Positions 13,268 to 37,285 of a stretch of 64,000 nucleotides of DNA are shown here, in pieces (position 1 is the first letter of the stretch; every line of letters starts with the position of its first letter). This stretch comes from Bryobacterales bacterium (GTDB taxonomy: Bacteria > Acidobacteriota > Terriglobia > Bryobacterales > Bryobacteraceae), in the NCBI GenBank assembly GCA_963817515.1, contig CAWFPJ010000002.1, forward strand, positions 39,454-103,453, in the 5' to 3' direction. The notes under the pieces were generated by a model. The model was not told the DNA's origin and made no database searches. It saw only the letters and a list, made by a program, of their open reading frames with translations. A program made the translations under genes and the position numbers.

Positions 13268-13392
13268 TCCCGGCCTCCAGTTTGAATAGCTTCAATATGA
13301 ATTGTACACCTCTGCCATGAGCCACTCAATCGCCGGAAGCCGGCGAGGTCGCGAACGAGCCGGGTGGAAGATCCGTGTAAGATGAAGATCGA

Positions 13393-13902: not shown

Positions 13903-13923
13903 CGCGCCCCGTAGGCGAGGACT

Positions 13924-14388: not shown

Positions 14389-14484
14389 GGCGGTATCCTT
14401 TCGACACTAAACTCTCCACTCAGGTCCCTGAGCGGGAAAGAGGTCAAGAAAATGTTTCCGGTCATCGCTGATCCGGCGATCAGT

Positions 14485-21152: not shown

Positions 21153-22691
21153 CTAGCGGATCACGTACAAATCCAGATCCGAAGCCAGGTCTCCGTGTTC
21201 CTGAATCCCTACCGTCTTCGCCGCGGCCGCATCCATGGCTGCGGCATCCGGCATCAGGTACTCAAAGGTGGCGAGGATTCGGTAACTTCCGGGCGCCAGG
21301 CCCTCGAAACGATACAGGCCGTGCGCATCGGTTCGCGTGACCCGCAGATCCGTGAGCCGCTTGCGCCCGTCCGGGTCGTATCCTTCCAGGTAGACCGGCG
21401 CGCCAAGCACCGGTTCCGCGGAATCTTTAACAGTCCCATGGACCGCCGCCGGGCCGGACGACAGCACGAACCTGACACGATCGAAGCCGCCCCGGATGAT
21501 GGTTTCGTTCCAGCCGTCCGCGCGCACATCCGGACGGCGGGCGTAGAACGGGCCGGAAAATCCGGCGACATAGTACCCTGGCGGCGGCGCTAACAGGAAC
21601 TGCCAGCGGCCTGGAGCCAGCGGGATTCGGTTGTTGACCAGCTTCAGACTGGCTGCGGGGCCTTCGCCTGCCAGATCTTTGCGGCGCGCCATCACCTGCA
21701 TGGACCCCGATGAGAGCGCTTGCGGCGGCGCGCCCTGGAAATCGAACTGCGTGTCGCGCAGGTTCTGCAGAGGCGTGACAAGCCTCTGGTCCCGTGCCAA
21801 CTCCACAGGTACGTAGGCTGCCTGCAGCAGAGCGCCTGAGGCCGGGTCGAAGCCCTGCCCGAACAATTCGTACCCGCCCGGCGTCAGGGAATTGAATTGA
21901 AAACCGCCGCCTTGCGTGGTGTCGCGGCCCATCTCCGAGATCAGAGTCGCGGTGATTCTGATGTTCGGTTCGAGGTCCGACGTGAACGCGCCCGAGAGAC
22001 TCAATAGCTTTCCCGGCAAGGGGCGGACATCGGCGTTCGCGACCTGCCGGTCCAGATCCACGTCCAAAATTCGCGCGTCCTCCACGCTCGCGGCGGCCGG
22101 AGAATAAGTCGGCAAATAGCCGCCCTCTTCGTAGAGCTTGGCCACGGTGCGGACCACATAGGCGCCGGGCTCAAGACCGTAGATACGGTACAAACCGCGC
22201 TCATCGGTGCGGGCGCGTTGGGTAGCCTGCGGCGGCCGGGTGTTACGGTACGCCACCACATCGTGGTCGGGGAGCCCCACCTCGTTATCGTCGAGCACTG
22301 CGCCGGTGATGGCTCCGTATCGCGGCAGGCGGACGTTGAGGAATGCGGATGCGGCCTCATCCAGAGTTACCGGAGTACCCGCGGAATTCCACCGCTTCTG
22401 CCCATACTCCACCGGCAGAAAATATGGCTTCGAAATCTTGACGACATATACGCCGCCGGGAAGCGAACCGAACTCAAAGATGCCGTAGCGATTGGTGAGC
22501 GCCCGCCGCGGAGATCCAGGGGTTCCGGCGACGGGCTGCACCACCACCAGCGCTCGCGAAAGCGCCTTGCTGGTCTGGTGCTCCACCACGTTGCCGCGAA
22601 TCACGGCGGCATCCAGCGTGGTTTGCAACGTACCCAAGGCCAAGGCGAGCATCAACATCAGCAGCAGCCATTTCGCCATAGCCGGCTTCAT
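21153..22691 (-). CDS. Secreted carboxypeptidase-regulatory-like domain protein (paralog 1)
   Basis: Signal peptide WLLLMLMLALALGTL. Repeated CarboxypepD_reg text (IRGNVVEHQTSKALSRALVVV..., VHGTVKDSAEPVLGAPVYLE...HGLYRFEGLAPGSYRI). Ends ...DLDLYVIR. Confidence 0.7.
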   Translation of the reverse strand: MKPAMAKWLLLMLMLALALGTLQTTLDAAVIRGNVVEHQTSKALSRALVVVQPVAGTPGSPRRALTNRYGIFEFGSLPGGVYVVKISKPYFLPVEYGQKRWNSAGTPVTLDEAASAFLNVRLPRYGAITGAVLDDNEVGLPDHDVVAYRNTRPPQATQRARTDERGLYRIYGLEPGAYVVRTVAKLYEEGGYLPTYSPAAASVEDARILDVDLDRQVANADVRPLPGKLLSLSGAFTSDLEPNIRITATLISEMGRDTTQGGGFQFNSLTPGGYELFGQGFDPASGALLQAAYVPVELARDQRLVTPLQNLRDTQFDFQGAPPQALSSGSMQVMARRKDLAGEGPAASLKLVNNRIPLAPGRWQFLLAPPPGYYVAGFSGPFYARRPDVRADGWNETIIRGGFDRVRFVLSSGPAAVHGTVKDSAEPVLGAPVYLEGYDPDGRKRLTDLRVTRTDAHGLYRFEGLAPGSYRILATFEYLMPDAAAMDAAAAKTVGIQEHGDLASDLDLYVIR

Positions 22692-24232
22692 CGGATAACG
22701 TACAGCTCCAGATCGAGGGGCGTGTCGTGGCTTTCTTCGATCTTCACCGTGCGGGGGCCGGCCGACTCCATAGTTGCCGAATCCGGCGCCTGAAATTCGA
22801 ACGTGCTGAGGATGCGGTAATTGCCGGGAGCCACGCCGTAGAACTGGTACTGGCCGTGAATGTCGGTGCGCGCTTCCCTGACGTCGATCAGGCGCTTGCG
22901 CGCGTCCACGTCGTACGCTTCCAGGTACACCGGCGCGCCCGGCACGGCGTCATGGCCGGCAATGGCTACCGTGCCGTGAAGCTGGCCGGGAGTGGACAAA
23001 CGGAAGGTCACCAGATTGGTGCCAACCTGCGTCGAGGGCAGCAGCACTTCGTTCCAGCCATCGGCACGGCTGCGGTCCACGCCGTCCGGCCTGCCGTCTA
23101 CTCCAGGGCCTCTGAACGTTTCGGCGTAATATTTCGGCGTGGGAGCCACCGCCATGTCCCATCGGCCGGGAGCGAGTTGCGTGGCGCCCTTCGAAAGCCG
23201 CAGGGTTTCGGTCTTGCCCTCACCCGAAAGATCCTTACGGCGCGCCAATACCTGCACCGTGCTGGGGTCGATCGGCTGGCCTTGGGTGTCCTGAAATGAG
23301 AACTGCAGCGGCGGATAGGTGCGCAGGCCGATCCGGATGTCGGTGCGGTCGCGCTCGAGTTCCAGCGGCATGTAAGCGCCTAGCGGTCCGCGGCGATCGC
23401 CCGGCGCGGTTGCGTATAACTCATAGCGGCCGGGGGCCGTGGGAGCGAATTTGAAGTTGCCGTCCTGGTCGCTCGAGAAAGTCTCCGACCCGGTATCGGA
23501 AATCAAGGTCAGAAGCGCCGGCTGCGGTGGCGACAAGGGAACCAGGGCCTGTCCGGCCACGATGAATAACTGGCCCGGGTGCGGGCGAACATTCACGTTG
23601 CTGGTCTCACGGTCGATCTCCACTTCCACCTGATACGCCTGGTCCACGGCGGCCACCTCCTTATAAAACGTAGGGAGATAACCGCCCTCTTCATATTCCT
23701 TGCCCACGGTGCGGACCAGATAGCGGCCGGGCTCCAGACCGGCAATGCGATACATGCCGCGATCGTCGGTCTTCACGCGTGTGACCAGTTGCGGCGGACG
23801 GGTGTTGCGATAGATCACGACGTCGTGCTCCGGCAGGCCCACGTCATTTTCATCCAGGATGACGCCGGTAACGGAGCCGAACCGCGGCATGCGGATGTTG
23901 AGAGACGTGGATTGCGCCTCTTCGAGTACTACGGGAATACCCGGAGCTTTCCAACGCTTTTGTCCATAGAGGGCCGGCGCGAAGCTGCGCCTTGACACGC
24001 TGACCAGATAGGCGCCCGCGGGGATTGTGGGCGTCTCAAAAGCGCCGTAGGAATTGGTACGGACGGAAATTGTCGGGCCGGGCGTGCCTTGCACCGGCGT
24101 TACCACCACAAGGGCGCGCGCCAGCACTTTTCCGCTCTGATGCTCCACCACGGTTCCGCGGATGTTGGCGGCCTGGAGAATACCGGCTGTAAGAGCCAAC
24201 AGCAGACATTCCGGCATTAGATATGGGCGCAT
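22688..24232 (-). CDS. Secreted carboxypeptidase-regulatory-like domain protein (paralog 2)
   Basis: Collinear with paralog 1 (IRGTVVEHQSGKVLARALVVV..., LHGTVAIAGHDAVPGAPVYLE...HGQYQFYGVAPGNYRI, ends DLELYVIR). I place the start at ATG 24232 (MRPYLMPECLLLALTAG), not at ORF-track 24541. Its stop overlaps the paralog 1 start (ATGA). Confidence 0.7.
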   Translation of the reverse strand: MRPYLMPECLLLALTAGILQAANIRGTVVEHQSGKVLARALVVVTPVQGTPGPTISVRTNSYGAFETPTIPAGAYLVSVSRRSFAPALYGQKRWKAPGIPVVLEEAQSTSLNIRMPRFGSVTGVILDENDVGLPEHDVVIYRNTRPPQLVTRVKTDDRGMYRIAGLEPGRYLVRTVGKEYEEGGYLPTFYKEVAAVDQAYQVEVEIDRETSNVNVRPHPGQLFIVAGQALVPLSPPQPALLTLISDTGSETFSSDQDGNFKFAPTAPGRYELYATAPGDRRGPLGAYMPLELERDRTDIRIGLRTYPPLQFSFQDTQGQPIDPSTVQVLARRKDLSGEGKTETLRLSKGATQLAPGRWDMAVAPTPKYYAETFRGPGVDGRPDGVDRSRADGWNEVLLPSTQVGTNLVTFRLSTPGQLHGTVAIAGHDAVPGAPVYLEAYDVDARKRLIDVREARTDIHGQYQFYGVAPGNYRILSTFEFQAPDSATMESAGPRTVKIEESHDTPLDLELYVIR

Positions 24233-24350
24233 AAGTTCTGACCGTATGACGGCTTGGGAGGCTGGAGAGTGCAGGGAAATGTTAGACCGTACGTGACCGA
24301 AAGATGTAGCATTGAATCCGTGGTGTTCGGTATATACTAACCAAAATCGA

Positions 24351-26303
24351 ATGATCAAGCCGGTGGCTCTCATCAGTATGCCGACTCTTTCGGCGCGCTT
24401 TCCTTCGTTCCAACTGGCACTGCTGAAACCAACTCTGGAGAAGGCCGGCATCCCCGCCCAGACGTTCTCTATGTTTATGTATTTTGGGCAACAGATCGGT
24501 TGGAGAATCAACGAAGCCATTGCCGACGTCTGGCCCAGCATGGTGGGTGAATGGATCTGGACAAAGGCCGCTTTCGGAGACCAGATACGGCAGGATGACG
24601 ACGCCTATTTCGGGGCTTACGACTATATTTTCAAAGCGATTTGCCGCGCCGCCGGCTGTAGCACCAAACGCTTTCAAAAGATCCGCGACCAGGAAGCTCA
24701 GAAGTTTATAGACTTCTGCCTGGAGGCCATAGACTGGCGGCGCTTCGGAGTAATTGGCTTTTCCGTGGTCTTCCAGCAAACGCTGGCCAGCCTGGCGCTG
24801 GCTAAAGCTCTGAAGAAGCGATACCCGGAGATTCCCATCATTTTCGGAGGAGCGAGTCTGGAAGACGATATCGCCGACGAGATCATGCGGGAGTGTCCTC
24901 AGGTGGATTACCTGCACTGCGGCGACGCCGAAATCTCATTTCCCGAAATGGTGCAGCGGCTGTATCGCGGCCAATCCATGGAGGGCTTGCGCGGCCTGAT
25001 GTGGCGCAACGGGGACAAAGTGGAGTATGCCGGCCGGGCGCCCAATTTCATGGCCATGGATGAGACTCCGCTGCCGGATTTCGACGAGTACTTCTACGCC
25101 CGCAAGGAAGGCGGCTACGAGGATTACGACGAGGCCTGCGAACCGCTGCTTCCGATCGAGACGGCGCGGGGCTGCTGGTGGGGCGAAAAACACCACTGCA
25201 CCTTTTGTGGTTTGAACCGCTCAGGCATGGAGTTTCGCGCCAAGGAGCCGGAGCGCGTCCTCGAGCAACTGGAAGATCTGGCGCGAAAATACGGGGTTCT
25301 GCACTTCAATGCCATCGACAATATTATGGCGCCGGAATACACGGAGAAGCTCTTCCGCCGCCTGGCTGAGGCCAATAGCGACCTGCAGCTCCATTATGAG
25401 ATCCGGCCCAATTTTTCGCGAACCCAACTCGGCCGGATGCGGAAGGGGGGCCTGTATTCGGTTCAACCGGGCGTGGAGAGCCTCTCTACCAACATTCTGA
25501 AAAGCATGCGCAAGAATACCACCGGCATGCGCAATGTCGAGTTGATCAAGTGGTGCACGTACTACGGGATCAATAATATGTACAACATCCTGATGCGCTT
25601 TCCGGGCGAGACCGAGGAAGACTACAGGGTACAGGCAGCGCTGGTCCCCAAGCTGCTCCATTTGCAGCCGCCCTACGGAATCGTCAAGGCGCGGGCTGAC
25701 CGTGGCTCCCCCATGTTTACCGAACCGGAAACGCAATCCATCACGCGCCTCAAACCGGCCGCCTGTTACGACCACATTTTTCCCAAGGGCTTCAATCTGG
25801 AGCGGGTGTCTTACTATTTCGACCACGAGATGGACAACATTGTGGACGAAGAATGCTACGGAGATCTGCTGGACCATGTGGCCCGGTGGCAGGCTAGTTG
25901 GACCGACGCCGGCCACCCGACGCTGCGCTACCGGAAGGCGCTCAAGAGCATCGTCATCGAAGATAGACGGCGCCGGAAACCTAAGACATATTCGTACGTG
26001 GACGGCCCGGCCGCTCTTTATGAATACTGCGCCGATGCGCGAACGCCGCGCGATATATCCGCCAACATAGGATCCGGGCCGGGTTCCGAAACCTGGATAC
26101 AGGAGGCGCTGGATGAATTCGTAAGCAGAGATCTGATGCTCTTTCTGGATGGCCGATATCTCAGCCTGGCGCTGCCCGAGAATCCGGATTTCGAACTGGT
26201 GACGCCGCCGCGTGCGCTCTCTGAAAGCGGCGCCGGCGCGCAAAGCAACTCGGCTGCGGGTTTGGTTTCACTGGCCGGATTGACAGGAGGACATTCCCAT
26301 TAA
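24351..26303 (+). CDS. B12-binding-domain-type radical SAM enzyme, RiPP-maturase-like (candidate TIGR03975-type C-methyltransferase family)
   Basis: ATG 24351 (MIKPVALISMPTLSARFPSFQLALLKP) is preferred over TTG 24312. Cluster motif ETARGCWWGEKHHCTFCGLN with Cys codons at 25173, 25197 and 25206. The N-terminal region is flavodoxin/B12-like, and there is a C-terminal extension of about 250 aa. The family assignment is from memory of the GCWWG..HC.FCGLN signature and needs an HMM search. Confidence 0.75.
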   Translation: MIKPVALISMPTLSARFPSFQLALLKPTLEKAGIPAQTFSMFMYFGQQIGWRINEAIADVWPSMVGEWIWTKAAFGDQIRQDDDAYFGAYDYIFKAICRAAGCSTKRFQKIRDQEAQKFIDFCLEAIDWRRFGVIGFSVVFQQTLASLALAKALKKRYPEIPIIFGGASLEDDIADEIMRECPQVDYLHCGDAEISFPEMVQRLYRGQSMEGLRGLMWRNGDKVEYAGRAPNFMAMDETPLPDFDEYFYARKEGGYEDYDEACEPLLPIETARGCWWGEKHHCTFCGLNRSGMEFRAKEPERVLEQLEDLARKYGVLHFNAIDNIMAPEYTEKLFRRLAEANSDLQLHYEIRPNFSRTQLGRMRKGGLYSVQPGVESLSTNILKSMRKNTTGMRNVELIKWCTYYGINNMYNILMRFPGETEEDYRVQAALVPKLLHLQPPYGIVKARADRGSPMFTEPETQSITRLKPAACYDHIFPKGFNLERVSYYFDHEMDNIVDEECYGDLLDHVARWQASWTDAGHPTLRYRKALKSIVIEDRRRRKPKTYSYVDGPAALYEYCADARTPRDISANIGSGPGSETWIQEALDEFVSRDLMLFLDGRYLSLALPENPDFELVTPPRALSESGAGAQSNSAAGLVSLAGLTGGHSH

Positions 26304-26352
26304 CCACCTGGCATCTCCCCGCATTGCAACCCCGCGCGAGGAGTTGCTGGAC

Positions 26353-29262
26353 ATGCTGCTGCAGCGTGGAATTTTGCGCCGCAACGAAGCTCAGCCGGTG
26401 CTTTCACGCGATGGCAAACCGGCCCGCTGGATGCTGGATTCGCTGGCCGTCACGATGACCAGCAGGGGAGCGGAACTGGCCGGACAGCTTGTGCTGGAGC
26501 GTCTGCGGAATTTCGATGGCCGGCAAATCGCGACCTACGGGCTGACCGCGGTTCCCATCCTGCAATCGGCAATCGTGCAATCGGCAGTTCTGCAGCCGGA
26601 ACGCCCGTATCACGGTCTGCTGGTGCGCAAAGAGCGCAAAGCGTACGGTTCGCAGAAACTGATTGAAGGCTGCATCGATCCGGACGAGCCCACTATACTG
26701 ATCGACGATTCCGTCGCCTCCGGCGTGAGCATGAGTGAGGGCATCGAGAAACTGGAGGCGGCCGGTATTCGCGTTGAGGGATGCGTGGCTCTGGTGCGGT
26801 TCGGTTGGGAAGGCGGATTTTCGATGCTTGCCCAGCGCGGCCTTCACGTGGAGGCGGTCTACGACATCTTTGAAGACTTCATGGCGCGAATGGAGGGCGA
26901 GCCTGGGCCAGACTATAACCCGACAAAGTGCTTTCCGGAATTTCGCTGGAGCACGCGGCGCGCGCCCGAGGGGCTGCATCCGGCACGTCTTGCCAGAGAG
27001 GTGATGCAGGAGTATTTCGCCAGCGGCGAGTTGCTGAGGCCACCGGACCGCCTGGATCGCGATGACTACGATTCCAGGGGAGGGGCCTGGGTGAGCCTGC
27101 GGTCACGGGACGATATGTTCGAGCGTTACGCGCGCGACGGCTTCTGGCATTTTCCCCAGGAGGGATCCTGGGGAGCGGCCGAGGATATCGTCCGCGCGGC
27201 GTTCCGCACTGCCCTCGAAATGTCCGCGGGCGGCAAGGGCATCAGTCTGCTGGGAGACAGCCATGCCGCTGTGACGTTGTTTTCGAGGCTCGAACGCGCG
27301 GCCATCGGGGAACTGGACAACCAACGCTACGGCATAATCGTAGCCAGTGCGGAGCGGCCGGAAATCATGGGCGGCGCTCTGCCCGGTATGCCGGGAATCC
27401 GTGACGAATGGCAACAGTTCCGCCACGCCCGGTATAACAATGCCGCGCTGTACCCTCACGAACCTTACACGGTCTACCGCCATGAAGTTCGAAAGTTCAT
27501 CGAACCGGGAGCGCCGTGGCCGCCGGGAGGAGTGGGGGACTCGAAGACGCCGGGCGATTTCGGCGCCTGGGCCGTGCGCGCCCGTGAAGTCGTCACCCGT
27601 GAAATAAGCCGGGGCTGCGAACCCTTCACACCGCTGGCGGCGGTCCACCTTCCGGAGAACGCCAGACTCATGTTCGTGACGCTCTATATCGACGGGCGGG
27701 TGCGCGGCTGCATGGGCTCGGAAATCGGCGATGCCGAAGAGGATCTCCGTGAACTGGCGCAGTCGGCCCTTACCGACGAGCGGTTCGAAGCCGCGCCGAT
27801 CGAGGAAGATTCTACCGTGGCGGTGAGCGTCTCGGTGCTCTACAACGAATTGGTTATGGGAGATTTCTCGCGTGAGGAGGTCCGCTTCCGCTATCGGCAT
27901 GGACAGCAGGCGTTGATGCTCGACCAGAAGGGCCGCGAGGGACTGCTGCTGCCATGCGTGGCAACGTGGCTCAGCCTTGACGCCGAGGATTTCGTCGATG
28001 AAGTGATTGACAAGGCGGGCGTCACGCGTCCGCCGTATAACTGGCGGCGCTTTGATTGCGATACCTGGCTGGCGGACGAAGACGGGGTTGCGCGGCTCGA
28101 TGGCGCTTTCAAGGTTGCTGCTTATCATCACACGGCCGATCTTTATAGGGCCGATCTTTCCCTCGCCAAAATCGCTCGCCTGCACGCGGACTATTTGCTG
28201 CGCAACCAGCGCCCGGATGGATCGCTCTACTTCGGCCACTACGCATTTGAGAACACACTCTACCAGGGCATTGACGCGGCTCACCTGGCGCACGCAGGCT
28301 GGATTCTGGCGCGGGCAGGTTTGGCCGACGCCTCAAACGCGGCTCTGGAACGAGCGGCAAATCTATCCGGGGACGAGCCGCTCAGGCTTTCGCGCGACGC
28401 GTTTTTCCTGCTCGCGAAGTGCGAACCGGCCCTGGCCGAGGGTGACCTGCCGGCGGCTGCGGAAATCGCGGCCAGACTGTGGACGTCAATAGACCGTCAT
28501 GGTCGCGTGACCACCTGGAGTCCGCCTGCGGCCGTGGAATCTGATGATGAGGATTCCGCCGATGCCCCCGAGGCTGACACCGGCGTGAGCGAGACCATTG
28601 ACGCTGAGGACCTTCAGAACTATGCTCCTGGCCATGTCCTGCTGGCCCTTGCCGCGGCCGCACGCGCAGGCAATTTTCCCTGCGACGAGCGGAAACTCAA
28701 CCGCGCGTTTCTGTATTACCGGCATCGTTTCCGCTACAAACGGGATTTCGGACAGGTTTCCTGGATGGCGCTGGCCTGGAGCGCCTGGTGGCGGCTGCGG
28801 AATGAACCGGAGTTTGCAGATTTCGTTTTCGAGATCGCCGACTGGATTCTGCAATTTCAGCACACCGGCACCGGAGCTTTTCTTACCGATCACCAACCGG
28901 ATACTCCCGGGTACACTACCGCGGTTTATCTGGAAGGCATCGCTGCCGCGGCGGTGACGGCACTCGCGCGCGGCGACACCACGCGGTACCAGCGATATTC
29001 GGACGCACATCGCCGCGGCTTCGCATTTCTTGACCGGTTGATCATTCAGGATCGCGATAGCTCTGTGCTTCCCAATCCCGGATACGCTCTAGGCGGTCTT
29101 CGCGAAAACCTATACAGCAGTCACATCCGAATCGATTTCGTGGCCCACTCGCTGGCCGCGATTCTCGAACTTTATCCCCAAGCTCTAATTCCAGTAGCAA
29201 ATACAAGAGGAGAATCAGAATGGCAGGCAAGAAGAAACCAAAGAAGCCAGGACCAATTATAG
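26353..29262 (+). CDS. Multidomain fusion protein: type I phosphoribosyltransferase domain + AMMECR1 domain + C-terminal helical-repeat (alpha/alpha-toroid-like) domain
   Basis: GAGGAG (26338-26343) lies 9 nt before ATG 26353; the ORF track starts at TTG 26344. OPRT-like N-terminus with the PRPP loop TILIDDSVASGVSM (about 26692-26735). AMMECR1 signature MFVTLYIDGRVRGCMGS ... GQQALMLDQKGREGLLLPCVA (about 27670-27960). The C-terminal 350 aa or so carry W/Y-rich helical repeats (LLRNQRPDGSLYFGHY, VSWMALAWSAWWRL, AVYLEGIAAAAV). Confidence 0.7.
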   Translation: MLLQRGILRRNEAQPVLSRDGKPARWMLDSLAVTMTSRGAELAGQLVLERLRNFDGRQIATYGLTAVPILQSAIVQSAVLQPERPYHGLLVRKERKAYGSQKLIEGCIDPDEPTILIDDSVASGVSMSEGIEKLEAAGIRVEGCVALVRFGWEGGFSMLAQRGLHVEAVYDIFEDFMARMEGEPGPDYNPTKCFPEFRWSTRRAPEGLHPARLAREVMQEYFASGELLRPPDRLDRDDYDSRGGAWVSLRSRDDMFERYARDGFWHFPQEGSWGAAEDIVRAAFRTALEMSAGGKGISLLGDSHAAVTLFSRLERAAIGELDNQRYGIIVASAERPEIMGGALPGMPGIRDEWQQFRHARYNNAALYPHEPYTVYRHEVRKFIEPGAPWPPGGVGDSKTPGDFGAWAVRAREVVTREISRGCEPFTPLAAVHLPENARLMFVTLYIDGRVRGCMGSEIGDAEEDLRELAQSALTDERFEAAPIEEDSTVAVSVSVLYNELVMGDFSREEVRFRYRHGQQALMLDQKGREGLLLPCVATWLSLDAEDFVDEVIDKAGVTRPPYNWRRFDCDTWLADEDGVARLDGAFKVAAYHHTADLYRADLSLAKIARLHADYLLRNQRPDGSLYFGHYAFENTLYQGIDAAHLAHAGWILARAGLADASNAALERAANLSGDEPLRLSRDAFFLLAKCEPALAEGDLPAAAEIAARLWTSIDRHGRVTTWSPPAAVESDDEDSADAPEADTGVSETIDAEDLQNYAPGHVLLALAAAARAGNFPCDERKLNRAFLYYRHRFRYKRDFGQVSWMALAWSAWWRLRNEPEFADFVFEIADWILQFQHTGTGAFLTDHQPDTPGYTTAVYLEGIAAAAVTALARGDTTRYQRYSDAHRRGFAFLDRLIIQDRDSSVLPNPGYALGGLRENLYSSHIRIDFVAHSLAAILELYPQALIPVANTRGESEWQARRNQRSQDQL

Positions 29263-29664
29263 AAGTGGCCCCGCCCGTGAAGAAGGGCTATGGAGGAATC
29301 ATCGAAGTGGCTCCGCCAACCGGCAAGCGTCGGGTCACCAAGCCGGTGATCGAAATAGCGCCGCCGGTCAAAGGCAAACGGCCCGGTGACGTGATTGTCG
29401 AAGTGGCTCCGGACATCAAGAAAAAGGCCGGTGGTGTGATGGAAATAGCGCCCGCCGTTCAACGGAAGAGCAAACCCCCCGGGGGGCCCATAAAGGAGAT
29501 AGCACCGGCGGTGAAGCCAAAGCCTTCCAAGCCCTGTGGGGCCGATTAAGGAAGTGGCCCCACCTACCAAGCCAAAGCCGAAGCCCATAGTGGAAATCGC
29601 GCCCCCTAAGAAGAAGTACAAGGGGCCGATTGTCGAAGTGGCTCCTCCGACTAAGAAGAAGTAG
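29220..29664 (+). CDS. Lys/Pro-rich repeat peptide (nine IEVAPP-type repeats). The reading frame is interrupted once, at the G4 run 29538-29541.
   Basis: GAGGAG (29207-29212) lies 7 nt before ATG 29220, and the start is 43 nt inside the end of the upstream gene. ORF 29220-29549 encodes six repeats and stops at TAA 29547. The +1 frame continues with three more repeats (GPIKEVAPPTKPKPKPIVEIAPPKKKYKGPIVEVAPPTKKK) to TAG 29662-29664. Removing one G joins them into a 147-aa product. Differences between repeats are mostly synonymous in this strand and frame. Confidence 0.65.
29256..29649 (+). repeat. Nine degenerate in-frame coding repeats (period 39-51 nt) encoding [IVMP][IVMK]E[VI]AP[PAD]
   Basis: Cores: IIEVAPP, IIEVAPP, VIEIAPP, IVEVAPD, VMEIAPA, IKEIAPA, IKEVAPP, IVEIAPP, IVEVAPP. 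They are separated by K/R/G/P-rich linkers. Confidence 0.85.
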
Positions 29665-29696
29665 CAGATAGCGCCGGCGGCTTAGAAAACCGGCGG

Positions 29697-29729
29697 CAAA
29701 AAACACCGGCGGCGGAGACCGCCGGCGCT
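29697..29729 (-). terminator. Rho-independent terminator for the minus-strand respiratory operon, shared with the convergent peptide gene
   Basis: On the minus strand: CCGGCGG-tctccg-CCGCCGG hairpin (plus-strand coordinates 29706-29725) followed by TGTTTTTTG (plus-strand A-run 29698-29703). It lies 55 nt downstream of the DUF420 stop. Confidence 0.65.
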
Positions 29730-29783: not shown

Positions 29784-30194
29784 TCAGAAGTGGTAGAGCA
29801 TCACGTACACCACCACGCCGGTCACGCTCACGTAAAGCCAGATGGGCAGCGTCCAGCGCGCAATTTTCCGGTGTTTGTCGTAACGGGCAGCCAGGCCGCG
29901 GCGCAGCGTGATAGTCGCCAGCACCGGAACCGTCGCGGCCAGCACTGTGTGGGTGAACAGGATGGTGAAATAGACAGTGCGGATGGCGCCGGTATGCTGA
30001 AACTTCACCGAGCCCACCTGCAGGTGATATATCACGTAGCAGACCAGAAATAAACACGAAGTCGCGAACGCGGTTTTCATGACCCGGCGGTGCTGGTCGA
30101 TGCGTTTGCGGCGAATCAGGATGAAGCCCCACACCAGCAGCACGGCGGCCGTGGCGTTGAGCGTGGCATTTACGGTGGGCAGTATTGCGATCAT
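29784..30194 (-). CDS. DUF420 domain-containing membrane protein (CtaM-like oxidase-associated factor)
   Basis: Four predicted TM helices. The NATLNATAAVLLVWGFILIRRKRIDQHRRVM and HTVLAATVPVLATITLRRG pattern is typical of DUF420. Confidence 0.7.
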   Translation of the reverse strand: MIAILPTVNATLNATAAVLLVWGFILIRRKRIDQHRRVMKTAFATSCLFLVCYVIYHLQVGSVKFQHTGAIRTVYFTILFTHTVLAATVPVLATITLRRGLAARYDKHRKIARWTLPIWLYVSVTGVVVYVMLYHF

Positions 30195-30790
30195 GATCGC
30201 TCGCGCTGTAACTGGTGGAGGTCGTGGAGCAGGCGCGCCTTGAAGTCGTCGTCGGAGGTCAGATAGAAGCCGCGAATGCGCCGCCGGCCATCCACCAAGG
30301 CGAACCGCGTGCTGTGACTCAGGCTGCCGTCTACGCCGGTGAGCTTGAAACCCTTGAGCCCGAGTTCGTTGAGGCGCGCCATATCGCCGGTCAGGAAATA
30401 CCAGCGCGCCAGGTCGGCTTTGAAGAATTGCGCGTACTTGGCGAGCACCGGCGGGGTGTCGTGCGCCGGGTCCACCGTGAAGGAAACCAGCTTGACGTCA
30501 GGCGTCGATTCGGTGGAACTTTGCAGTCCGCGCATCTGGTGGCTCATCATGGGGCAGGGGCCGTCGCAAGTTGTGTAAATGAAATCGGCGATCCAGATGT
30601 GGCCATCGAGAGTCTTGCTGTCGAAGGGCTGGCCGGTCTGGAGGATGAGGTCGAACTGTGGAACCTCGCCCAGCACCGGCAGCGGCTTGGTGGTGACGCA
30701 TGAGGCTAGAAGGGATAACAGGAGGCATGCCGTGCCGGTTTGAAAGCCGGCGTGGCACGCACGAGTGCCTGCTCCACGGCGGGTGCTCAT
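30191..30790 (-). CDS. SCO1/SenC family copper chaperone (thioredoxin fold)
   Basis: I place the start at ATG 30790 (MSTRRGAG...LLLSLLASC); ORF-track 31486 is a spurious extension. CDGPC copper motif in IADFIYTTCDGPCPMM and the downstream SHSTRF histidine. Its stop overlaps the DUF420 start. Confidence 0.85.
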   Translation of the reverse strand: MSTRRGAGTRACHAGFQTGTACLLLSLLASCVTTKPLPVLGEVPQFDLILQTGQPFDSKTLDGHIWIADFIYTTCDGPCPMMSHQMRGLQSSTESTPDVKLVSFTVDPAHDTPPVLAKYAQFFKADLARWYFLTGDMARLNELGLKGFKLTGVDGSLSHSTRFALVDGRRRIRGFYLTSDDDFKARLLHDLHQLQRERS

Positions 30791-31518
30791 GTGGTTGACT
30801 TCTGCGCCGCCAACATGCCGGAGGCCAGTAGAAGCGCCAGTCCGAAGGCCGCGGTGATGGCGAGGCTTTCGGCCGGCCCGGGGACGGCGTTGGGCAACCC
30901 GAGCATATAGTTCAGCAGGGAGATTGAATAGGTGAGCGGGTTGATCCACATGAGGGCCCTTACCCATCCGTGCGCCGTGGCCATGGGGAAGAGGGCGCCT
31001 GACACCATCCACATGGGCACCAGCAGCAACATCATGATGCCGTGAAATGCCGCGGTGGAATCCATTTTCCATGCGATCGCAAACCCGAGACCGGTGAGCG
31101 TGAACGAAATTAGAAACATCGCGGCCACAACCCACAACACATCTATCAGCCCGATGCTCACCCCGGCCAGCGGGGCGAAGACCAGCAGCATCAGGCCCTG
31201 GATCCAGCCCAACGTGGCGGCGCCCAGAATCTTGCCCAGCACCAGGCTGGTGCGCGGCGCGGGCGAAACCAGCATGGAAAGCAGAAAACCCTCCCTGCGG
31301 TCTTCGATGATCGAAATGGTGGAAAAGATGGCGGAAAACATCACCGTCAGCACCAGAGTTCCCGAATAGTATCGCGCCAGGTCGCCCGAACCGTAACCGA
31401 TCAGCAGCCAGAAAACCAGCGGCGAAGCCACCACGCTCATCACGCGGCTTTTCTGGCGCCAGAAGCGCAGCATTTCGCGCTGCCACAAGGTTGCTGCGGG
31501 CAAGAAGAAGCTACTCAA
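30787..31518 (-). CDS. ABC-2 type transporter permease
   Basis: Six hydrophobic segments. TLWQREMLRFWRQKSRV is the typical ABC-2 N-terminus. The start is uncertain: TTG 31518 overlapping the ATPase stop, or ATG 31473. ATGA overlap with the SCO gene. Confidence 0.7.
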   Translation of the reverse strand: MSSFFLPAATLWQREMLRFWRQKSRVMSVVASPLVFWLLIGYGSGDLARYYSGTLVLTVMFSAIFSTISIIEDRREGFLLSMLVSPAPRTSLVLGKILGAATLGWIQGLMLLVFAPLAGVSIGLIDVLWVVAAMFLISFTLTGLGFAIAWKMDSTAAFHGIMMLLLVPMWMVSGALFPMATAHGWVRALMWINPLTYSISLLNYMLGLPNAVPGPAESLAITAAFGLALLLASGMLAAQKSTT

Positions 31519-32420
31519 GCGCCGCTCCCGTTTCGCGTATGAACACGTCTTCGAGCGTAGGTTTATGCAGGCCGACGGATTCCACCGCGCCCGGAAACGC
31601 CTCCACCACTTCGGCAATGAAGCGGTGGCCGTTCTGCATTTCCACGCGCACCTGGCCGTCCCGGGTTACAGGGTGCAGGCCGAAGCGCTGCTCAATCTTG
31701 GCCGCCAGCGATTTGCTGTCCGCCGTTTCCAGAAGCACCACATCGCCGCCGATACGCGCGCGCAATTCGCTGGAACTGCCCTGCGCCACGATGCTTCCCC
31801 TCGTGCAACAGGGCCAGCCGGTCGCAACGGTCGGCTTCATCCAGAATGTGGGTGGTCAGCAGGATGGTGACGCCCTCGTGTTCGCGCAGGCTCTCGACGT
31901 GCCGCGAAAGGTCGCGCCGCGCAGCCGGGTCGAGGCCGGTCGAAGCCTCATCCATCAACAGCACCTTGGGCTGATGCAGCAGCGCCTTGGCGATCTCCAC
32001 GCGCCGGCGCAATCCGCCGGAAAGCGCTTCCACCAGATCTTTGCGCCGATCCGTCAAGCCCAGGCGCTCCATGGCGCGGGCCATTCGCTCGCGCAGCAGC
32101 ACGCCGCTGAGACCGTGCAGGTGGCCCTGCGCGCGCAGGTTCTCTTCCACCGTAAGGGCCTTGTCCAGGCTTTGCGTCTGGAAGACCACGCCTACTTCGC
32201 GGCGCACGGCGGCGGGCTCGCGCTCCACATCATGGCCCGCGATGATTGCGCGGCCTTCGGTGGGCGACATCATGGTGGAGAGAATACGGAAGAGCGTGGA
32301 TTTTCCACCGCCGTTGGGCCCGAGAAGGCCGAAGATTTCACCTTTCTTCACGTCGAAGCTGACGCTCGAAAGCGCAACCCGGTCACCGTAGCGATGGGTA
32401 AGGTTTTGAACTTGGATCAC
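31511..32420 (-). pseudogene. ABC transporter ATP-binding protein with one apparent 1-nt insertion near 31792
   Basis: GTG 32420 start (VIQVQNLTHRYG) overlaps the haem O synthase stop (GTGA). Walker A GPNGGGKST, signature LSGGLRRRV, Walker B LLMDEAS. The frame of ORF 31692-32972 gives ...LALLHEGKHRGAG. The frame of ORF 31511-31840 gives SIVAQGSSSELRARIGG.... Deleting one base restores LHEGKIVAQG. Confidence 0.8.
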
Positions 32421-33295
32421 AGACCGGGCCTGTCTAGGAGCATGAGCCCGTAGATAAGCGGCAGGTATATCACGGACGTAATCAGGACATTGCGCGCGCG
32501 CACCAGGCTTCGCTCCAGCGCTACCCGCACACCTGAATATAAAAACCAAAGACCGAGCAGCAGAGCCCCGACAAGATAGATGCGTCCCGACATTCCCAGG
32601 AGACCCGGCACCAGGCTGACCGGAATCAGCGCCAGACCATACAGCACGATCTGCCGCGCCGTGGACCGGCCGTCCGGCTCCACTACGGGCAGCATCAGGA
32701 TGCCGGCGCGCGCGTAGTCTTCCCGATACATCCAGGCGATCGAATAGAAATGCGGGAACTGCCATAGGAAAAGGATCGCGAACAGAACCCACGATTCGCG
32801 CGTGATGCCGCCGGCCGCCGCAGCGTAACCGATCATAGGCGGCATGGCCCCCGGAATCGCGCCGACTGTAGTGGACCACCATGTCCGCTGCTTCATGGGG
32901 GTGTAGAGGAACAGATAACTGACCAGCGTAAAGGCGCCGATCAAGGCCGAAAGCAGATTCACCCCCAGCCACAACTCGAGAAAACCGGCGGTTGAAAGCA
33001 CTGTGCCAAAGGCCAGCGCGCGACCGGCGGACAGCCTGCCCGAAGGTAGCGGCCGGTCCGCCGTGCGGTGCATCTTGCGATCGGCTACGCGCTCATACCA
33101 CTGGTTCAGCGCCGCCGTGCCGGAGGCTATGAGCGCGGTCCCGAAGATGGTGTGCAAGAGCGAGAGAAGATTGATGTGGGTGAGGAAGTCCCACCAGGTG
33201 GCAGCACGGGGCAGCCCGAAGAAATACCCGATCCCTGTGCTCATGAGGATCAGCCAGGTGATTCGCGGTTTCGTCAATTCGATGTAATCGCGCAT
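32417..33295 (-). CDS. ctaB: Protohaem IX farnesyltransferase (haem O synthase)
   Basis: UbiA-family text: YIELTKPRITWLILMSTGIGY, NQWYERVADRKMHRTADRPLPSGRL, FLWQFPHFYSIAWMYREDYARAG. Confidence 0.9.
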   Translation of the reverse strand: MRDYIELTKPRITWLILMSTGIGYFFGLPRAATWWDFLTHINLLSLLHTIFGTALIASGTAALNQWYERVADRKMHRTADRPLPSGRLSAGRALAFGTVLSTAGFLELWLGVNLLSALIGAFTLVSYLFLYTPMKQRTWWSTTVGAIPGAMPPMIGYAAAAGGITRESWVLFAILFLWQFPHFYSIAWMYREDYARAGILMLPVVEPDGRSTARQIVLYGLALIPVSLVPGLLGMSGRIYLVGALLLGLWFLYSGVRVALERSLVRARNVLITSVIYLPLIYGLMLLDRPGL

Positions 33296-37100: not shown

Positions 37101-37285
37101 GAAAGGGTTTTCAGATATCGCGAATATAGCTTTACGAACCGCGCCTCGTAGCCCTTCCACGGACGAATACCGTACATCTCGTCGTACAGGCCCCACACCA
37201 TCGAAATCACCAGCAGGACCGATGAAATGAACAGGGGCTTGCTCAGCGATGAATGGACTACCGGATCCTTCTCTTGATCGCTCAT
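34199..37285 (-). CDS. Membrane-anchored octahaem c-type cytochrome (cytochrome c subunit of the Rieske/cyt b complex cluster)
   Basis: N-terminal TM helix (LFISSVLLVISMVWGLY) and a coiled-coil-like region. Eight CxxCH sites: CESCH, CTPCH, CQQCH, CMGCH, CMACH, CAGCH, CMGCH, CLKCH. Confidence 0.85.
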   Translation of the reverse strand: MSDQEKDPVVHSSLSKPLFISSVLLVISMVWGLYDEMYGIRPWKGYEARFVKLYSRYLKTLSGGEADVEKQIRTSPDYQRLDREMAAAEQAAMPGASTIDKKINQELVPKILALNDPFQEVRSHIGALTYEIEVTKSESSKDSLRKQIVELKAETKSVKLPGDEKANEMTFQQMADQLQAMKDEKAKLLQQRVDLMKTATELRAKRDQYLSDRIAAASTGTISAVQSSLEKFDIKIRQIHVKDVDLVDRCESCHLGTREPIVLTKAAMGGEEVFTSHPNKELLKIHDPDKFGCTPCHGGNGAALSSIEKAHGYNKFWLWPMHHKENIDAGCQQCHVREIVTEMADTLNQGREIFRLRGCMGCHRYEGFDREADEISSVNQQIRQLEQQKAEWKREIGFSDEKANNPRTSDTEAKQLFQHSNDLKVRTSGLDAKIEQFDMRSRSLIREVKKVGPSLKEVRAKLKKQWIPVWLKDPHVWREGTKMPTFRLDDNEIRAISAFIWQSGVNAAPPAQKPGDPAKGQEAFETRGCMACHSMGEGGQKQGGTFAANLSREGEKANYDYLVRWVHNPRQRSAPYCSFEKKDLTAEDYQRHNLPYVFDLEHSKCPNDGHELQVQQMTPMPSLRLTEDEARDVASYLMTRKHGDAAYANTDYMDDPNLKNQGLSLVRNYGCAGCHEIAGLEEEQRIGTELTKEGSKPTERLDFALLGHKAEEEGWYTHKGFFEHKLENPAVYDTGKEKAKQDRLKMPNFNFSKPEIDAVTTLLEGSVDASVPSRYFYTPTDQRQDIIDGWWVVRKYNCMGCHKVHVGQNSIFDTMTKYQDPDWKDQKPPTLIGEGARVNPDWLMRFLNNPALSETDTNRDGVRQYLKARMPTFSFSDGEIRKLVRFFEAMSSQAQPFIAEKLDPLTDQERTMARQLFTSEGAPCLKCHMTGDPKHDSRATAPNFTVAKERLKPGWTRRWMLDPALMSPGTAMPSGLFRREGDRMVFAGPVPASFNGYEKDHADLLVRYMFSFTPEELSKMRASAGTSN

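What the first reader, a model, noticed from the sequence alone, without database searches (positions are those of the whole stretch)
29220..29664. Repeat peptide: nine IEVAPP cores with synonymous drift, a strongly basic composition, and no leader or signal peptide
With the frames joined, the sequence reads MAGKKKPKKPGP-IIEVAPP-VKKGYGG-IIEVAPP-TGKRRVTKP-VIEIAPP-VKGKRPGDV-IVEVAPD-IKKKAGG-VMEIAPA-VQRKSKPPGGP-IKEIAPA-VKPKPSKPCGP-IKEVAPP-TKPKPKP-IVEIAPP-KKKYKGP-IVEVAPP-TKKK.
The core codons differ mainly at third positions: GAA GTG GCC CCG CCC, GAA GTG GCT CCG CCA, GAA ATA GCG CCG CCG, GAG ATA GCA CCG GCG, GAA ATC GCG CCC CCT, and so on. The same changes are non-synonymous in the mirrored antisense ORF (RSHFDN / RRYFDH / GRGHFYN). 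This argues for purifying selection on the plus-strand frame.
By my count about a quarter of residues are Lys/Arg, and each repeat has one Glu.
A multi-core layout without a recognisable leader is unusual for RiPP precursors. An alternative reading is a histone-H1/AlgP-like basic repeat protein that is post-translationally modified.
Basis: seen in the sequence. Interest (0 to 1): 0.85.

Follow-up and report, generated by a model that had tools for sequence, protein, structure and literature searches.

The report
Repeat peptide beside radical-SAM and AMMECR1 enzymes
This is a real, conserved gene for a small protein made of nine near-identical short motifs, always found next to two unusual enzymes in soil Acidobacteria, and it is probably their substrate, which would give the long-mysterious AMMECR1 enzyme family a first candidate target.

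Summary
The nine E-[VI]-A-P cores are real and far beyond chance. As written, the window carries a one-base frame break in a GGGG run (29538-29541), giving a 109-aa ORF with six cores and a +1-frame piece with three.

The gene is under purifying selection in the plus frame (dN/dS 0.05-0.20). In 60 of 62 related arrays it is one uninterrupted ORF. It is the third member of a conserved three-gene cassette, together with:
- a cobalamin radical-SAM C-methyltransferase of the PoyC/MpcB type (TIGR03975, CX7CX2C);
- a 970-aa four-domain enzyme: an orotate-PRTase-like domain, a cryptic AMMECR1 fold, a canonical AMMECR1 domain and an (alpha/alpha)6 barrel.

Only these three genes are syntenic across more than 55 loci, and their order varies. 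Searching from the peptide side leads back to the enzymes in 32 of 36 metagenome contigs; the other four are too short to tell.

The best reading is a leaderless, multi-site substrate whose Pro/Ile/Val-rich cores are C-methylated and further modified. The chemistry and the fate of the product (cut peptides or intact protein) are inferred.

The H1/AlgP-like reading is not supported as a family trait, because relatives have acidic linkers. No annotation, family model or paper describing the system was found.

The parts
29220..29549 (+). Repeat-protein ORF as it stands in the window: ATG start, 109 aa, six cores (IIEVAPP, IIEVAPP, VIEIAPP, IVEVAPD, VMEIAPA, IKEIAPA), ending at TAA just after the frame break.
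   Evidence: Orthologues start the same way, MA(A)KK(R/K)..P-G-x-I-V-E-V-A-P-P.
29538..29541 (+). GGGG run where the reading frame breaks. Removing one G restores the single 147-aa frame (...KPCGPIKEVAPP...).
   Evidence: Of 62 related arrays, 60 lie in one ORF; only this one and L064 are split.
29542..29664 (+). Continuation of the repeat protein in the +1 frame: three more cores (IKEVAPP, IVEIAPP, IVEVAPP) and the C-terminal TKKK, then the stop codon. The mechanical ORF call for this stretch is 29536..29664 with a GTG start.
   Evidence: The C-terminal end ...PIVEVAPPTKKK* resembles that of orthologues, for example L010 ...PIIEVAPSTRKKK*.
29207..29222 (+). Ribosome-binding region GAGGAGAATCAGAATG. 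The 15-mer AGGAGAATCAGAATG before and including the start codon is identical in L001, L003, L004 and L006.
26344..29262 (+). Four-domain enzyme, 972-aa ORF (database copy 969 aa). Domains:
- orotate-PRTase-like, about residues 20-190;
- cryptic AMMECR1 fold without the Cys motif, 196-400;
- canonical AMMECR1, 407-590, with invariant RGCxG and DERF motifs;
- (alpha/alpha)6 barrel, about 607-945.
Its 3' end overlaps the repeat gene's start by 43 nt.
24312..26303 (+). Cobalamin-binding radical-SAM enzyme of family TIGR03975, 'RiPP maturation radical SAM C-methyltransferase'. Its cluster motif is C288-x7-C296-x2-C299. The true start is probably the ATG at about 24351.
   Evidence: (563 bits against a cut-off of 281.85)
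29172..29621 (-). Mirrored antisense ORF (149 aa). It is a compositional by-product and not a gene.
   Evidence: The equivalent frame carries stops in 9 of 19 orthologues. Its dN/dS is no better than the sense frame, and worse in divergent pairs.

Best explanation
The segment encodes a ribosomally made, intrinsically repetitive protein. It is the dedicated substrate of the two enzymes encoded directly upstream in the same operon.

Shown:
- The gene is translated-frame conserved.
- Each repeat keeps a core [G/R]-[P/V]-[I/V]-[V/T/K]-E-[V/I/M]-[A/S]-P with an invariant Glu.
- The gene travels as a self-contained three-gene cassette with a PoyC/MpcB-type cobalamin radical-SAM C-methyltransferase and a PRTase / AMMECR1-like / AMMECR1 / (alpha/alpha)6-barrel enzyme.
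- In this clade there is no separate leader.

Inferred:
- Each repeat carries its own recognition element, so the enzymes work iteratively along the chain.
- The radical-SAM enzyme C-methylates unactivated carbons of the Pro/Ile/Val residues of each core, as MpcB does in clavusporin and as the polytheonamide methyltransferases do.
- The big AMMECR1 enzyme is its obligatory partner. It presents the substrate, as MpcC does for MpcB, and probably adds a second modification. Its OPRTase-like catalytic loop and PRPP loop are intact, which suggests PRPP-dependent chemistry. The invariant Glu is the obvious candidate acceptor or recognition residue.
- The variable linkers, Lys/Arg/Pro-rich here, keep the hydrophobic modified cores soluble and may serve as protease sites that release 7-10-residue modified peptides.

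The frame break in the window is either a homopolymer-length assembly error or a very recent mutation. It is not a programmed frameshift.
For: Coding and selection.

Cassette from the enzyme side:
- 17 genome loci carry a full-length orthologue of the 972-aa enzyme, and all have a repeat ORF adjacent. Only the radical-SAM, fusion and repeat genes are shared across them.
- Gene order differs in L011, L014, L019, L020, L022, L061-L063 and L065, yet the trio stays together.

Cassette from the peptide side: 32 of 36 metagenome contigs found with the peptide profile carry the fusion or radical-SAM gene next to it. The other 4 lack the flank.

Enzyme identities:
- TIGR03975 at 563 bits, above its cut-off, and CX7CX2C. 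The clavusporin paper reports the same motif for MpcB.
- AMMECR1 matches Pfam at 69.8 bits against a cut-off of 25. Its two signature motifs are invariant in 36 sequences (motifs as defined in PMC2034487).
- The OPRTase catalytic loop and PRPP loop align.
- A confident AF2 model (pLDDT 83) has fold matches to AMMECR1, OPRTase and (alpha/alpha)6 barrels.
- A second AMMECR1 fold is present.

Precedents:
- MpcB needs the partner MpcC and beta-methylates Pro, Val, Ile and Thr in a K/R-flanked core.
- TvgB modifies each copy of a repeated TVGG motif.

Modularity: the same repeats are fused to an N-terminal 180-aa domain or a C-terminal DUF1843 domain in other clusters that still carry the enzyme pair.
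Against: - No modification has been observed; everything about the chemistry is inferred from family membership.
- No protease, transporter or immunity gene is conserved with the cassette, which is atypical for a secreted RiPP.
- TIGR03975 enzymes characterised so far use long leaders. MpcBC is leader-dependent, so leader-independent action is an assumption.
- AMMECR1 has no known activity, and the PRTase domain falls below NCBIfam's equivalog cut-offs.
- In the window itself the gene is broken, so here it may yield only a six-core product or be non-functional.
Confidence: 0.6

Rival explanations
1. The repeat protein is modified by the neighbouring enzymes but stays intact. It functions as a long, disordered, modified polymer, for example a polycationic nucleic-acid, envelope or membrane-binding protein, or a cross-linkable matrix protein. 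It would not be a precursor that is cut into peptides.
For: - No protease or exporter is conserved with the cassette.
- The repeats also occur as tails on a conserved 180-aa globular domain and on DUF1843 domains, as expected of a protein module.
- The repeats are positionally orthologous and old in this clade. Mean within-gene nucleotide identity is 0.62, and individual repeats such as VIKEMAP and TIKEIAP are conserved in position.
- Oxidases (LodA/LodB, tyrosinase, 2OG and JmjC oxygenases) lie nearby in some loci.
Against: - Linker charge is not conserved: basic here, acidic in Candidatus Angelobacter, and mixed elsewhere. A charge-based binding role therefore cannot be the shared function.
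- The oxidase neighbours are sporadic. LodA occurs in 3 loci and a 2OG oxygenase in 2.
- There is no signal peptide for an extracellular matrix role.
Confidence: 0.22
2. The repeats are a sacrificial scaffold from which a small molecule, such as a cofactor- or nucleotide-like compound, is built and excised. This would resemble PQQ from PqqA or mycofactocin from MftA. Several copies per chain would raise the yield, and the PRTase-like domain would phosphoribosylate the excised or modified residue.
For: - The Glu is invariant and the core is tiny and strictly conserved.
- The OPRTase-like domain has an intact catalytic loop and PRPP loop.
- No exporter or immunity gene is present.
- AMMECR1 was predicted to work with a radical-SAM enzyme on a conserved Cys.
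Against: - The radical-SAM enzyme belongs to the peptide C-methyltransferase family, not to the SPASM cross-linking families used for PQQ or mycofactocin.
- No peptidase for excision is conserved.
- The distribution is patchy, not what is expected of a core cofactor.
Confidence: 0.1
3. The ORF is not a substrate at all. It could be a regulatory, stalling or leader-type ORF, a chaperone-like partner of the enzymes, or, in this window, simply a pseudogene remnant.
For: - The window copy carries a frame break.
- A-P-P motifs are known ribosome-stalling sequences (general knowledge, not tested here).
- The gene is rarely called by annotation pipelines: 19 proteins in 5.8 billion and 4 in 1.84 billion representatives.
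Against: - Selection acts on the amino-acid sequence of every core (dN/dS 0.05-0.2), and 60 of 62 arrays are intact.
- The residue after A-P is variable (P in only 36 of 150 cores), so a stalling motif is not conserved.
- Copy number ranges from 4 to more than 20 with strict core conservation, which fits a multi-site substrate better than a regulator.
- The three cores after the break are still perfect.
Confidence: 0.08

Closest known systems
Clavusporin (mpc) system of Streptomyces clavuligerus: MpcA precursor, B12 radical-SAM MpcB, partner MpcC (PMC10849626)
   Same: - A cobalamin radical-SAM methyltransferase with the unusual CX7CX2C motif.
- It works only together with a second, previously uncharacterised protein.
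- Its targets are Pro, Val, Ile and Thr beta-carbons in a short hydrophobic core flanked by Lys/Arg.
   Different: - MpcA has one core with a leader and an acidic follower, and methylation is leader-dependent.
- The partner is DUF5825, not a PRTase/AMMECR1/barrel enzyme.
- The mpc cluster has an S9 peptidase and a transporter, and it is actinobacterial.
Proteusin / polytheonamide-type C-methyltransferases (NCBIfam TIGR03975, the family that includes the Poy methyltransferases)
   Same: The window's radical-SAM enzyme scores 563 bits against TIGR03975, with full-length coverage of the model (positions 1-606 of 606).
   Different: From general knowledge, those precursors carry a long nitrile-hydratase-like or Nif11-like leader and a single long core. 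Here there is no such leader, the protein has many short cores, and an AMMECR1 partner enzyme is present.
TvgA/TvgB poly-cyclopropylglycine system (PMC9062424)
   Same: The precursor is made of a short motif repeated several times (TVGG). A radical-SAM enzyme modifies the Val of each repeat, and synthetic repeat-only peptides are substrates.
   Different: - TvgB is an rSAM-SPASM enzyme that forms a C-C bond, not a B12 methylase.
- The tvg cluster has a dioxygenase and peptidase/transporter genes.
- Its repeats are contiguous 4-mers, not 14-18-aa units with linkers.
AmmeMemoRadiSam system (TIGR04335/04336/04337) and the AMMECR1 family (PF01871)
   Same: An AMMECR1 domain with invariant RGCxG and DxRF motifs is genetically coupled to a radical-SAM enzyme.
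   Different: - There is no Memo-type protein.
- The radical-SAM partner is a cobalamin class-B enzyme.
- The AMMECR1 domain is duplicated and fused to PRTase and barrel domains.
- TIGR04335 scores 76, below its cut-off of 99.
- A peptide substrate candidate is present, which the classical system lacks.
Multi-core precursors of other RiPP classes (cyanobactin PatE-type, fungal ustiloxin/dikaritin Kex2-flanked repeats, insect apidaecin multipeptide precursors); from general knowledge
   Same: Several copies of one short core in a single translation product, separated by basic or recognisable spacer sequences.
   Different: Those have a leader or signal peptide and dedicated or secretory-pathway proteases, and their modifying enzymes are unrelated.
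AlgP / histone-H1-like basic repeat proteins
   Same: Lys/Pro/Ala-rich and low-complexity, with no signal peptide and a high pI (10.3).
   Different: - Here the conserved element is a hydrophobic, acidic core rather than the basic spacer.
- Relatives with acidic spacers exist.
- The gene is locked to modifying enzymes.
- No similarity to any known family was found in Pfam or NCBIfam.

Membership tests
RiPP precursor peptide (generic definition) | A small ribosomally encoded peptide gene clustered with genes for peptide-modifying enzymes | tested here: met
   The gene is adjacent to a TIGR03975 radical-SAM enzyme and the AMMECR1 fusion enzyme in the window and in more than 55 related loci.
RiPP precursor peptide (generic definition) | An N-terminal leader (or C-terminal follower) distinct from the core and used for enzyme recognition | tested here: not met
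   In the window clade the protein starts MA(G/A)KKK..PGP and enters core 1 by residue 13. The N-terminal 40-60 aa of distant relatives look like degenerate repeats (RPxxxPEVV). Some relatives have a 180-aa N-terminal domain of unknown role.
RiPP precursor peptide (generic definition) | Proteolytic release and export of the mature peptide (dedicated protease or transporter) | tested here: not met
   No protease or transporter gene is conserved in the flanks. Housekeeping proteases cannot be excluded.
RiPP precursor peptide (generic definition) | Post-translational modification of core residues actually occurs | not testable with these tools
   This needs mass spectrometry of the expressed product.
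TIGR03975 RiPP maturation radical SAM C-methyltransferase (neighbouring gene 24312-26303) | Score above the curated cut-off, with a B12-binding domain, a radical-SAM domain and a Cys cluster motif | tested here: met
   563 bits against a cut-off of 281.85, covering model positions 1-606 of 606. Pfam finds B12-binding and Radical_SAM. The motif is CWWGEKHHCTFC, i.e. CX7CX2C.
AMMECR1 (PF01871) (neighbouring gene 26344-29262) | Pfam gathering score, plus the RGChG and DxR-aromatic signature motifs | tested here: met
   69.8 bits against a cut-off of 25. G455, C456, G458, D478, R480 and F481 are invariant in 36 homologues. The motifs are as defined in PMC2034487. Fold matches are 1zq7, 1vaj and 1wsc.
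AmmeMemoRadiSam system | AMMECR1 protein A above the TIGR04335 cut-off, a Memo-type protein B, and the cognate non-B12 radical-SAM enzyme | tested here: not met
   TIGR04335 scores 76.1, below 99. No Memo homologue is found in the cassette. The radical-SAM enzyme is cobalamin class B.
Orotate phosphoribosyltransferase (N-terminal domain of the fusion enzyme) | pyrE equivalog score, plus the catalytic flexible loop and the PRPP-binding loop | tested here: inconclusive
   TIGR00336 scores 59.5, below 106.8, so this is not a pyrE equivalog. However, the loop RKERKxYGSQK and the motif LIDDSVASGVS align with human and mycobacterial OPRTases and are invariant or nearly so. Activity and acceptor are unknown.
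AlgP / H1-like basic repeat DNA-binding proteins | A basic (KPAA/AKP-type) repeat as the conserved, functional element | tested here: not met
   The conserved element is xxE[VI]AP. The spacers vary from basic to acidic across orthologues.
Programmed +1 ribosomal frameshift gene | The frameshift site is conserved in orthologues | tested here: not met
   60 of 62 arrays lie in a single ORF. No orthologue shares the break.

The most novel reading that the evidence does not exclude
AMMECR1 domains are protein- or peptide-modifying enzymes that act together with radical-SAM partners. This cassette would show the family's first genetically defined substrate. The tandem-AMMECR1/PRTase/barrel enzyme would perform a new, possibly PRPP-dependent modification at or next to the invariant Glu of each IVEVAP core. 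Together with B12-dependent C-methylation, this would create a leader-independent, iteratively modified poly-core product of a new RiPP-like class. In some lineages the system is coupled by gene fusion to a second DUF1843 / rSAM-SPASM system.
Probability: 0.25. Interest if true: 0.9.

Novelty: new variant of a known kind. Interest (0 to 1): 0.72.

Why it matters
- AMMECR1 is conserved from archaea to humans and is implicated in a human contiguous-gene syndrome. Its biochemical activity was still uncharacterised in the one analysis found, and nothing retrieved since assigns it one. A compact three-gene cassette that pairs an AMMECR1 enzyme with an obvious, easily synthesised peptide substrate makes that question directly testable.
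- For natural-product research, this would be a widespread, unannotated family in soil Acidobacteria. The fusion enzyme had 714 database homologues at E<=1e-10. The family shows a leaderless, multi-site substrate logic and a new partner for cobalamin radical-SAM methylases.
- Gene callers mostly miss the peptide (19 proteins in 5.8 billion). This illustrates how such substrates escape current mining pipelines.

Tried and rejected
- **DNA-level repeat detection:** Tandem Repeats Finder found nothing in the array, only an unrelated 16-nt repeat downstream.
- **Direct protein searches with the peptide:**
  - The searches gave only 2, 4 and 19 hits. Orthologues had to be found through the neighbouring enzyme and through a degenerate-pattern scan.
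  - Pfam and NCBIfam gave no family for the peptide.
- **Locating the window's own contig:** looking up its enzyme found no record.
- **Sequence searches on the fusion enzyme:**
  - Pfam gave nothing for residues 190-400 or 600-972.
  - hhalign found no relation between domain 2 and the other domains. Only the structure prediction and Foldseek showed that domain 2 is a second AMMECR1 fold.
- **Literature:** ten searches found no description of the system.
- **Programmed frameshift:** rejected, because the break is not conserved.
- **Antisense ORF as the real gene:** rejected.
- **H1/AlgP-like DNA-binding as the family function:** rejected, because spacer charge is not conserved.
- **Dedicated protease, exporter or immunity genes:** searched for in the flanks of 26 long loci and not found.
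- **ABC-2 transporter genes downstream in the window:** they lie on the other strand and are not syntenic elsewhere.
- **The C-terminal barrel as a terpene cyclase, LanC or glycosidase:** only generic (alpha/alpha)6 fold similarity was found (TM about 0.55-0.65). No family assignment was made.

Full report
**1. What is in the sequence.**

On the + strand an ATG at 29220 opens a 109-aa ORF, 29220..29549. It is preceded by GAGGAG seven bases upstream. The ORF contains six copies of x-x-E-[VI]-A-P-x separated by Lys/Arg/Pro/Gly-rich spacers. After a GGGG run at 29538-29541 the same kind of sequence continues in the +1 frame up to 29664, with three more cores and the ending TKKK.

The motif is far beyond chance:
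- Nine of the 13 E[VI]AP matches in all six frames of the 64-kb window lie here.
- 100,000 shuffles of the peptide never gave more than three.

- K+R is 23.8% and Pro is 21%.
- There is one Glu per core, nine in all.
- The pI is 10.3 and core spacing is 14-18 aa.

Over the four core codons the nine copies differ 85 times at third positions, 20 times at first positions (all Val/Ile) and never at second positions. At DNA level the array is too diverged for Tandem Repeats Finder, and mean core identity is 0.62.

**2. It is a real, selected gene.**

The 972-aa ORF just upstream was used to fetch related genome loci. All 17 loci with a full-length orthologue carry a repeat ORF of the same kind next to it. 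In every one it is a single frame with 4-14 cores and no internal stop.

Nei-Gojobori dN/dS in the sense frame is 0.05-0.20 for 11 orthologue pairs. The antisense frame that shares wobble positions gives 0.05-0.34, and it is worse than sense in all divergent pairs. All other frames give values above 0.7. The mirrored antisense ORF, 29172..29621 in the window, is interrupted in 9 of 19 genes.

The 15 bases AGGAGAATCAGAATG around the start codon are identical in several loci whose proteins are only about 55% identical.

Across all loci gathered, 60 of 62 arrays lie in one ORF. Only the window and L064 are split. L064 also has a split radical-SAM gene.

The window's break is therefore not a programmed frameshift. 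It is a homopolymer-length error or a very recent mutation. The three cores after the break are still perfect.

**3. The core and the spacers.**

From 150 cores the consensus is [G/R]-[P/V]-[I/V]-[V/T/K]-E-[V/I/M]-[A/S/V]-P-x-[T/V]-[K/R]. The Glu is invariant. Individual repeats are positionally orthologous between genomes. For example, the VIKEMAP and TIKEIAP units keep their place.

The basic spacers are not a family trait:
- Candidatus Angelobacter relatives have RPIVEVVAEVQNPAFAQGERE and RPIAEISPDVNFANGERA units.
- Others have PEVVTEVAPEIKPEIK.
- Others have GEVIVEVAPDRPE.

What is conserved is the short hydrophobic core with its Glu.

**4. The neighbours.**

*The radical-SAM enzyme.* Gene 24312-26303 is a cobalamin-binding radical-SAM enzyme. 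It scores 563 bits on NCBIfam TIGR03975, 'RiPP maturation radical SAM C-methyltransferase', whose cut-off is 281.85. It carries CX7CX2C. The clavusporin paper reports the same motif for MpcB.

*The four-domain enzyme.* Gene 26344-29262 is a four-domain protein:
- The N-terminal domain aligns with orotate phosphoribosyltransferases, including the catalytic flexible loop (RKERKAYGSQK against RKETKDYGTKR in human OPRT) and the PRPP loop.
- Residues 196-400 have no sequence match. They fold confidently (pLDDT 92) into an AMMECR1 fold, with Foldseek E 9e-9 and TM 0.68 to PH0010. This domain lacks the Cys motif.
- Residues 407-590 are a canonical AMMECR1 domain (Pfam 69.8 bits). The RGCxG and DERF motifs are invariant in 36 homologues. 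The motifs are as defined in PMC2034487.
- Residues about 607-945 form an (alpha/alpha)6 barrel with only generic fold neighbours.

The family is large. There were 714 database proteins at E<=1e-10. The 120 best-scoring hits listed are nearly all near full length with this architecture, and where named they are called only 'orotate phosphoribosyltransferase/AMMECR1 domain-containing protein'.

**5. The three genes form a cassette.**

tblastn of all window ORFs from 17 to 40 kb against the related loci shows that only the radical-SAM gene, the fusion gene and the repeat gene are shared. All-against-all clustering of flanking ORFs in 26 long loci gives the same answer.

Gene order changes while the trio stays together:
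- The peptide comes first in L011, L014, L019, L020 and L022.
- The order is peptide, fusion, radical-SAM in L061-L063.

Starting from the peptide instead, a degenerate-pattern scan of metagenome contigs returned 36 loci. Of these, 32 have the fusion or radical-SAM gene adjacent, and the other four lack the relevant flank.

No protease, exporter or immunity gene travels with the cassette. The record titles place nearly all loci in Acidobacteriota: Bryobacterales, Terriglobia, Blastocatellia/Pyrinomonadaceae and Candidatus Angelobacter.

**6. Mechanism.**

*Shown:* a translated, selected, multi-copy core gene is locked to a PoyC/MpcB-type methylase and an AMMECR1 enzyme, with no leader in this clade.

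*Inferred:*
- Each repeat is recognised on its own.
- The methylase C-methylates the Pro/Ile/Val side chains of the core. The closest studied case, clavusporin, is beta-methylated on Pro, Val, Ile and Thr in a K/R-flanked core, and this happens only when MpcB has its partner MpcC.
- The fusion enzyme is the partner here and probably adds a second modification, possibly PRPP-dependent. The invariant Glu is the candidate acceptor or recognition residue.
- The spacers keep the product soluble and may be protease sites.

A repeated motif modified copy by copy by a radical-SAM enzyme has a precedent in TvgA/TvgB. Whether the product is cut into peptides or stays as a modified protein is open. The lack of a protease or exporter, and the occurrence of the repeats as tails on other domains, favour the intact-protein rival more than is usual for RiPPs.

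**7. Extended family.**

The same repeats occur in three architectures:
- Alone, as in the window.
- C-terminal to a conserved, unannotated domain of about 180 aa (P0123, P0133, P0139, P0140). The fusion and B12 radical-SAM genes lie directly downstream.
- N-terminal to a DUF1843 domain (P0132, P0136). In L065 the order is fusion enzyme, EVAP-DUF1843 protein, two small DUF1843 genes and an rSAM-SPASM gene, all on one strand.

A block of two or three DUF1843 genes plus an rSAM-SPASM gene also lies beside the cassette in 12 loci. It is absent from the window. Sporadic neighbours are:
- 2OG/JmjC oxygenases (L020, L022, L061);
- a second B12 radical-SAM gene (L013, L016, L027);
- LodA/LodB (L023, L051, L061);
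- tyrosinase;
- an MvdD-type ATP-grasp.

**8. Comparison with what is known, and novelty.**

- The radical-SAM enzyme is a member of a known family.
- The AMMECR1 domain is a member of PF01871 but not of the AmmeMemoRadiSam system.
- The peptide matches no Pfam or NCBIfam model.
- The peptide is nearly absent from protein databases: 19 hits in 5.8 billion, all 'hypothetical', and 4 in 1.84 billion representatives.
- No paper in the searchable library combines AMMECR1 with RiPP. The two that combine it with radical SAM and peptide (a 2007 fold analysis and a 2020 conflict-systems survey) do not describe this system by title and abstract. None of the papers listed for the cobalamin query mentions AMMECR1.

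I rate it a new variant of a known kind. It is a radical-SAM-modified ribosomal peptide system with a leaderless multi-core substrate and a new type of partner enzyme.

**9. Limits.**

- No chemistry is shown.
- E-values of the locus searches are relative to the candidates only.
- The taxonomic labels are those of the MAG records.
- The status of the window's own copy (error or truncation) cannot be settled without reads.

Noticed in passing
L065:432-5810; also L002, L003, L005, L006, L008, L015, L023, L038, L041, L043, L045 (upstream of the cassette): A second module lies beside the cassette in 12 loci: two or three small DUF1843 genes plus an rSAM-SPASM enzyme. In L065 and L047 the EVAP repeats are fused to a DUF1843 domain in one protein (P0136, P0132). 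This points to a functional link between the two systems. The module is absent from the window.
   Followed up: partly
L060:1554-3005, L061:9001-9777, L062:9001-9819, L063:1629-2447: These proteins have a conserved domain of about 180 aa at the N-terminus, with no Pfam or NCBIfam match, followed by 6 to about 20 GEVIVEVAPDRPE-type repeats. In L061-L063 the AMMECR1 fusion gene and the B12 radical-SAM gene follow directly. The domain could be a very large leader or a functional domain carrying a modified tail.
   Followed up: partly
L020:4197-4832, L022:4601-5176, L061:14532-15551: 2OG-Fe(II) oxygenase genes (prolyl-hydroxylase-like PF13640) lie immediately next to the repeat gene. In L061 the neighbour is a Cupin_8/JmjC hydroxylase. 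This hints at hydroxylation of the Pro-rich cores in some lineages.
   Followed up: no
L013:5178-7010, L016:11463-13280, L027:1189-2274: A second TIGR03975-like B12 radical-SAM gene lies downstream of the repeat gene. This occurs in the lineages with acidic-linker repeats (Candidatus Angelobacter) and in one metagenome contig.
   Followed up: no
L023:1-2972, L051:1905-3407, L061:4495-8673: LodA-like quinoprotein amino-acid oxidase genes lie next to the cassette in three otherwise different loci. In L023 and L061 a flavoprotein partner of the LodB type is also present. L061 also has a tyrosinase and L062 a hemocyanin-type gene nearby.
   Followed up: no
window 26929-27543 (residues 196-400 of the fusion enzyme): This domain has no sequence similarity to anything in Pfam or PDB. 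Nevertheless it is predicted with pLDDT 92 to be a second AMMECR1 fold lacking the catalytic Cys motif. The enzyme is therefore a tandem AMMECR1.
   Followed up: yes
window 29674-29724: Between the convergent repeat gene and the DUF420 gene there are 2.5 copies of a 16-nt unit, CCGGCGGCAAAAAAAA. On the minus strand there are two terminator-like hairpins followed by T runs. These probably terminate the DUF420/SCO1 operon.
   Followed up: no
L064:9151-9804 and 12594-14404: In this long-read MAG contig a 16-core array is split over three frames. The radical-SAM gene is split into separate B12-binding and Radical_SAM ORFs, and the AMMECR1 gene is not called. This is either a decaying second copy of the cassette or local assembly errors. 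The same sample also holds the intact cassette of L020.
   Followed up: no
L017:10938-11231: In one Terriglobia MAG the ORF downstream of the fusion gene is basic but has degenerate cores (PIIDAAAG, GGDATP, FGDTAP, VGDTAPP, AIEYAP) instead of E-V-A-P. The fusion-gene match there is in two pieces.
   Followed up: no
P0001 (122 aa, 1.5-kb contig) and P0126 (219 aa): These are database proteins in which a few EVAP repeats run into unrelated sequence, a GNAT domain in P0001. They are probably chimeric assemblies or wrong gene calls. They show how poorly this gene is handled by annotation pipelines.
   Followed up: no
window 21153-24541 (-), 29784-33295 (-), 34199-37285 (-): The surroundings of the cassette in the window are unrelated and not syntenic elsewhere:
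- two CarboxypepD_reg repeat proteins upstream;
- DUF420, SCO1/SenC, an ABC-2 permease with its ATPase, and a UbiA prenyltransferase downstream on the other strand;
- a 1028-aa multihaem cytochrome c.
   Followed up: partly
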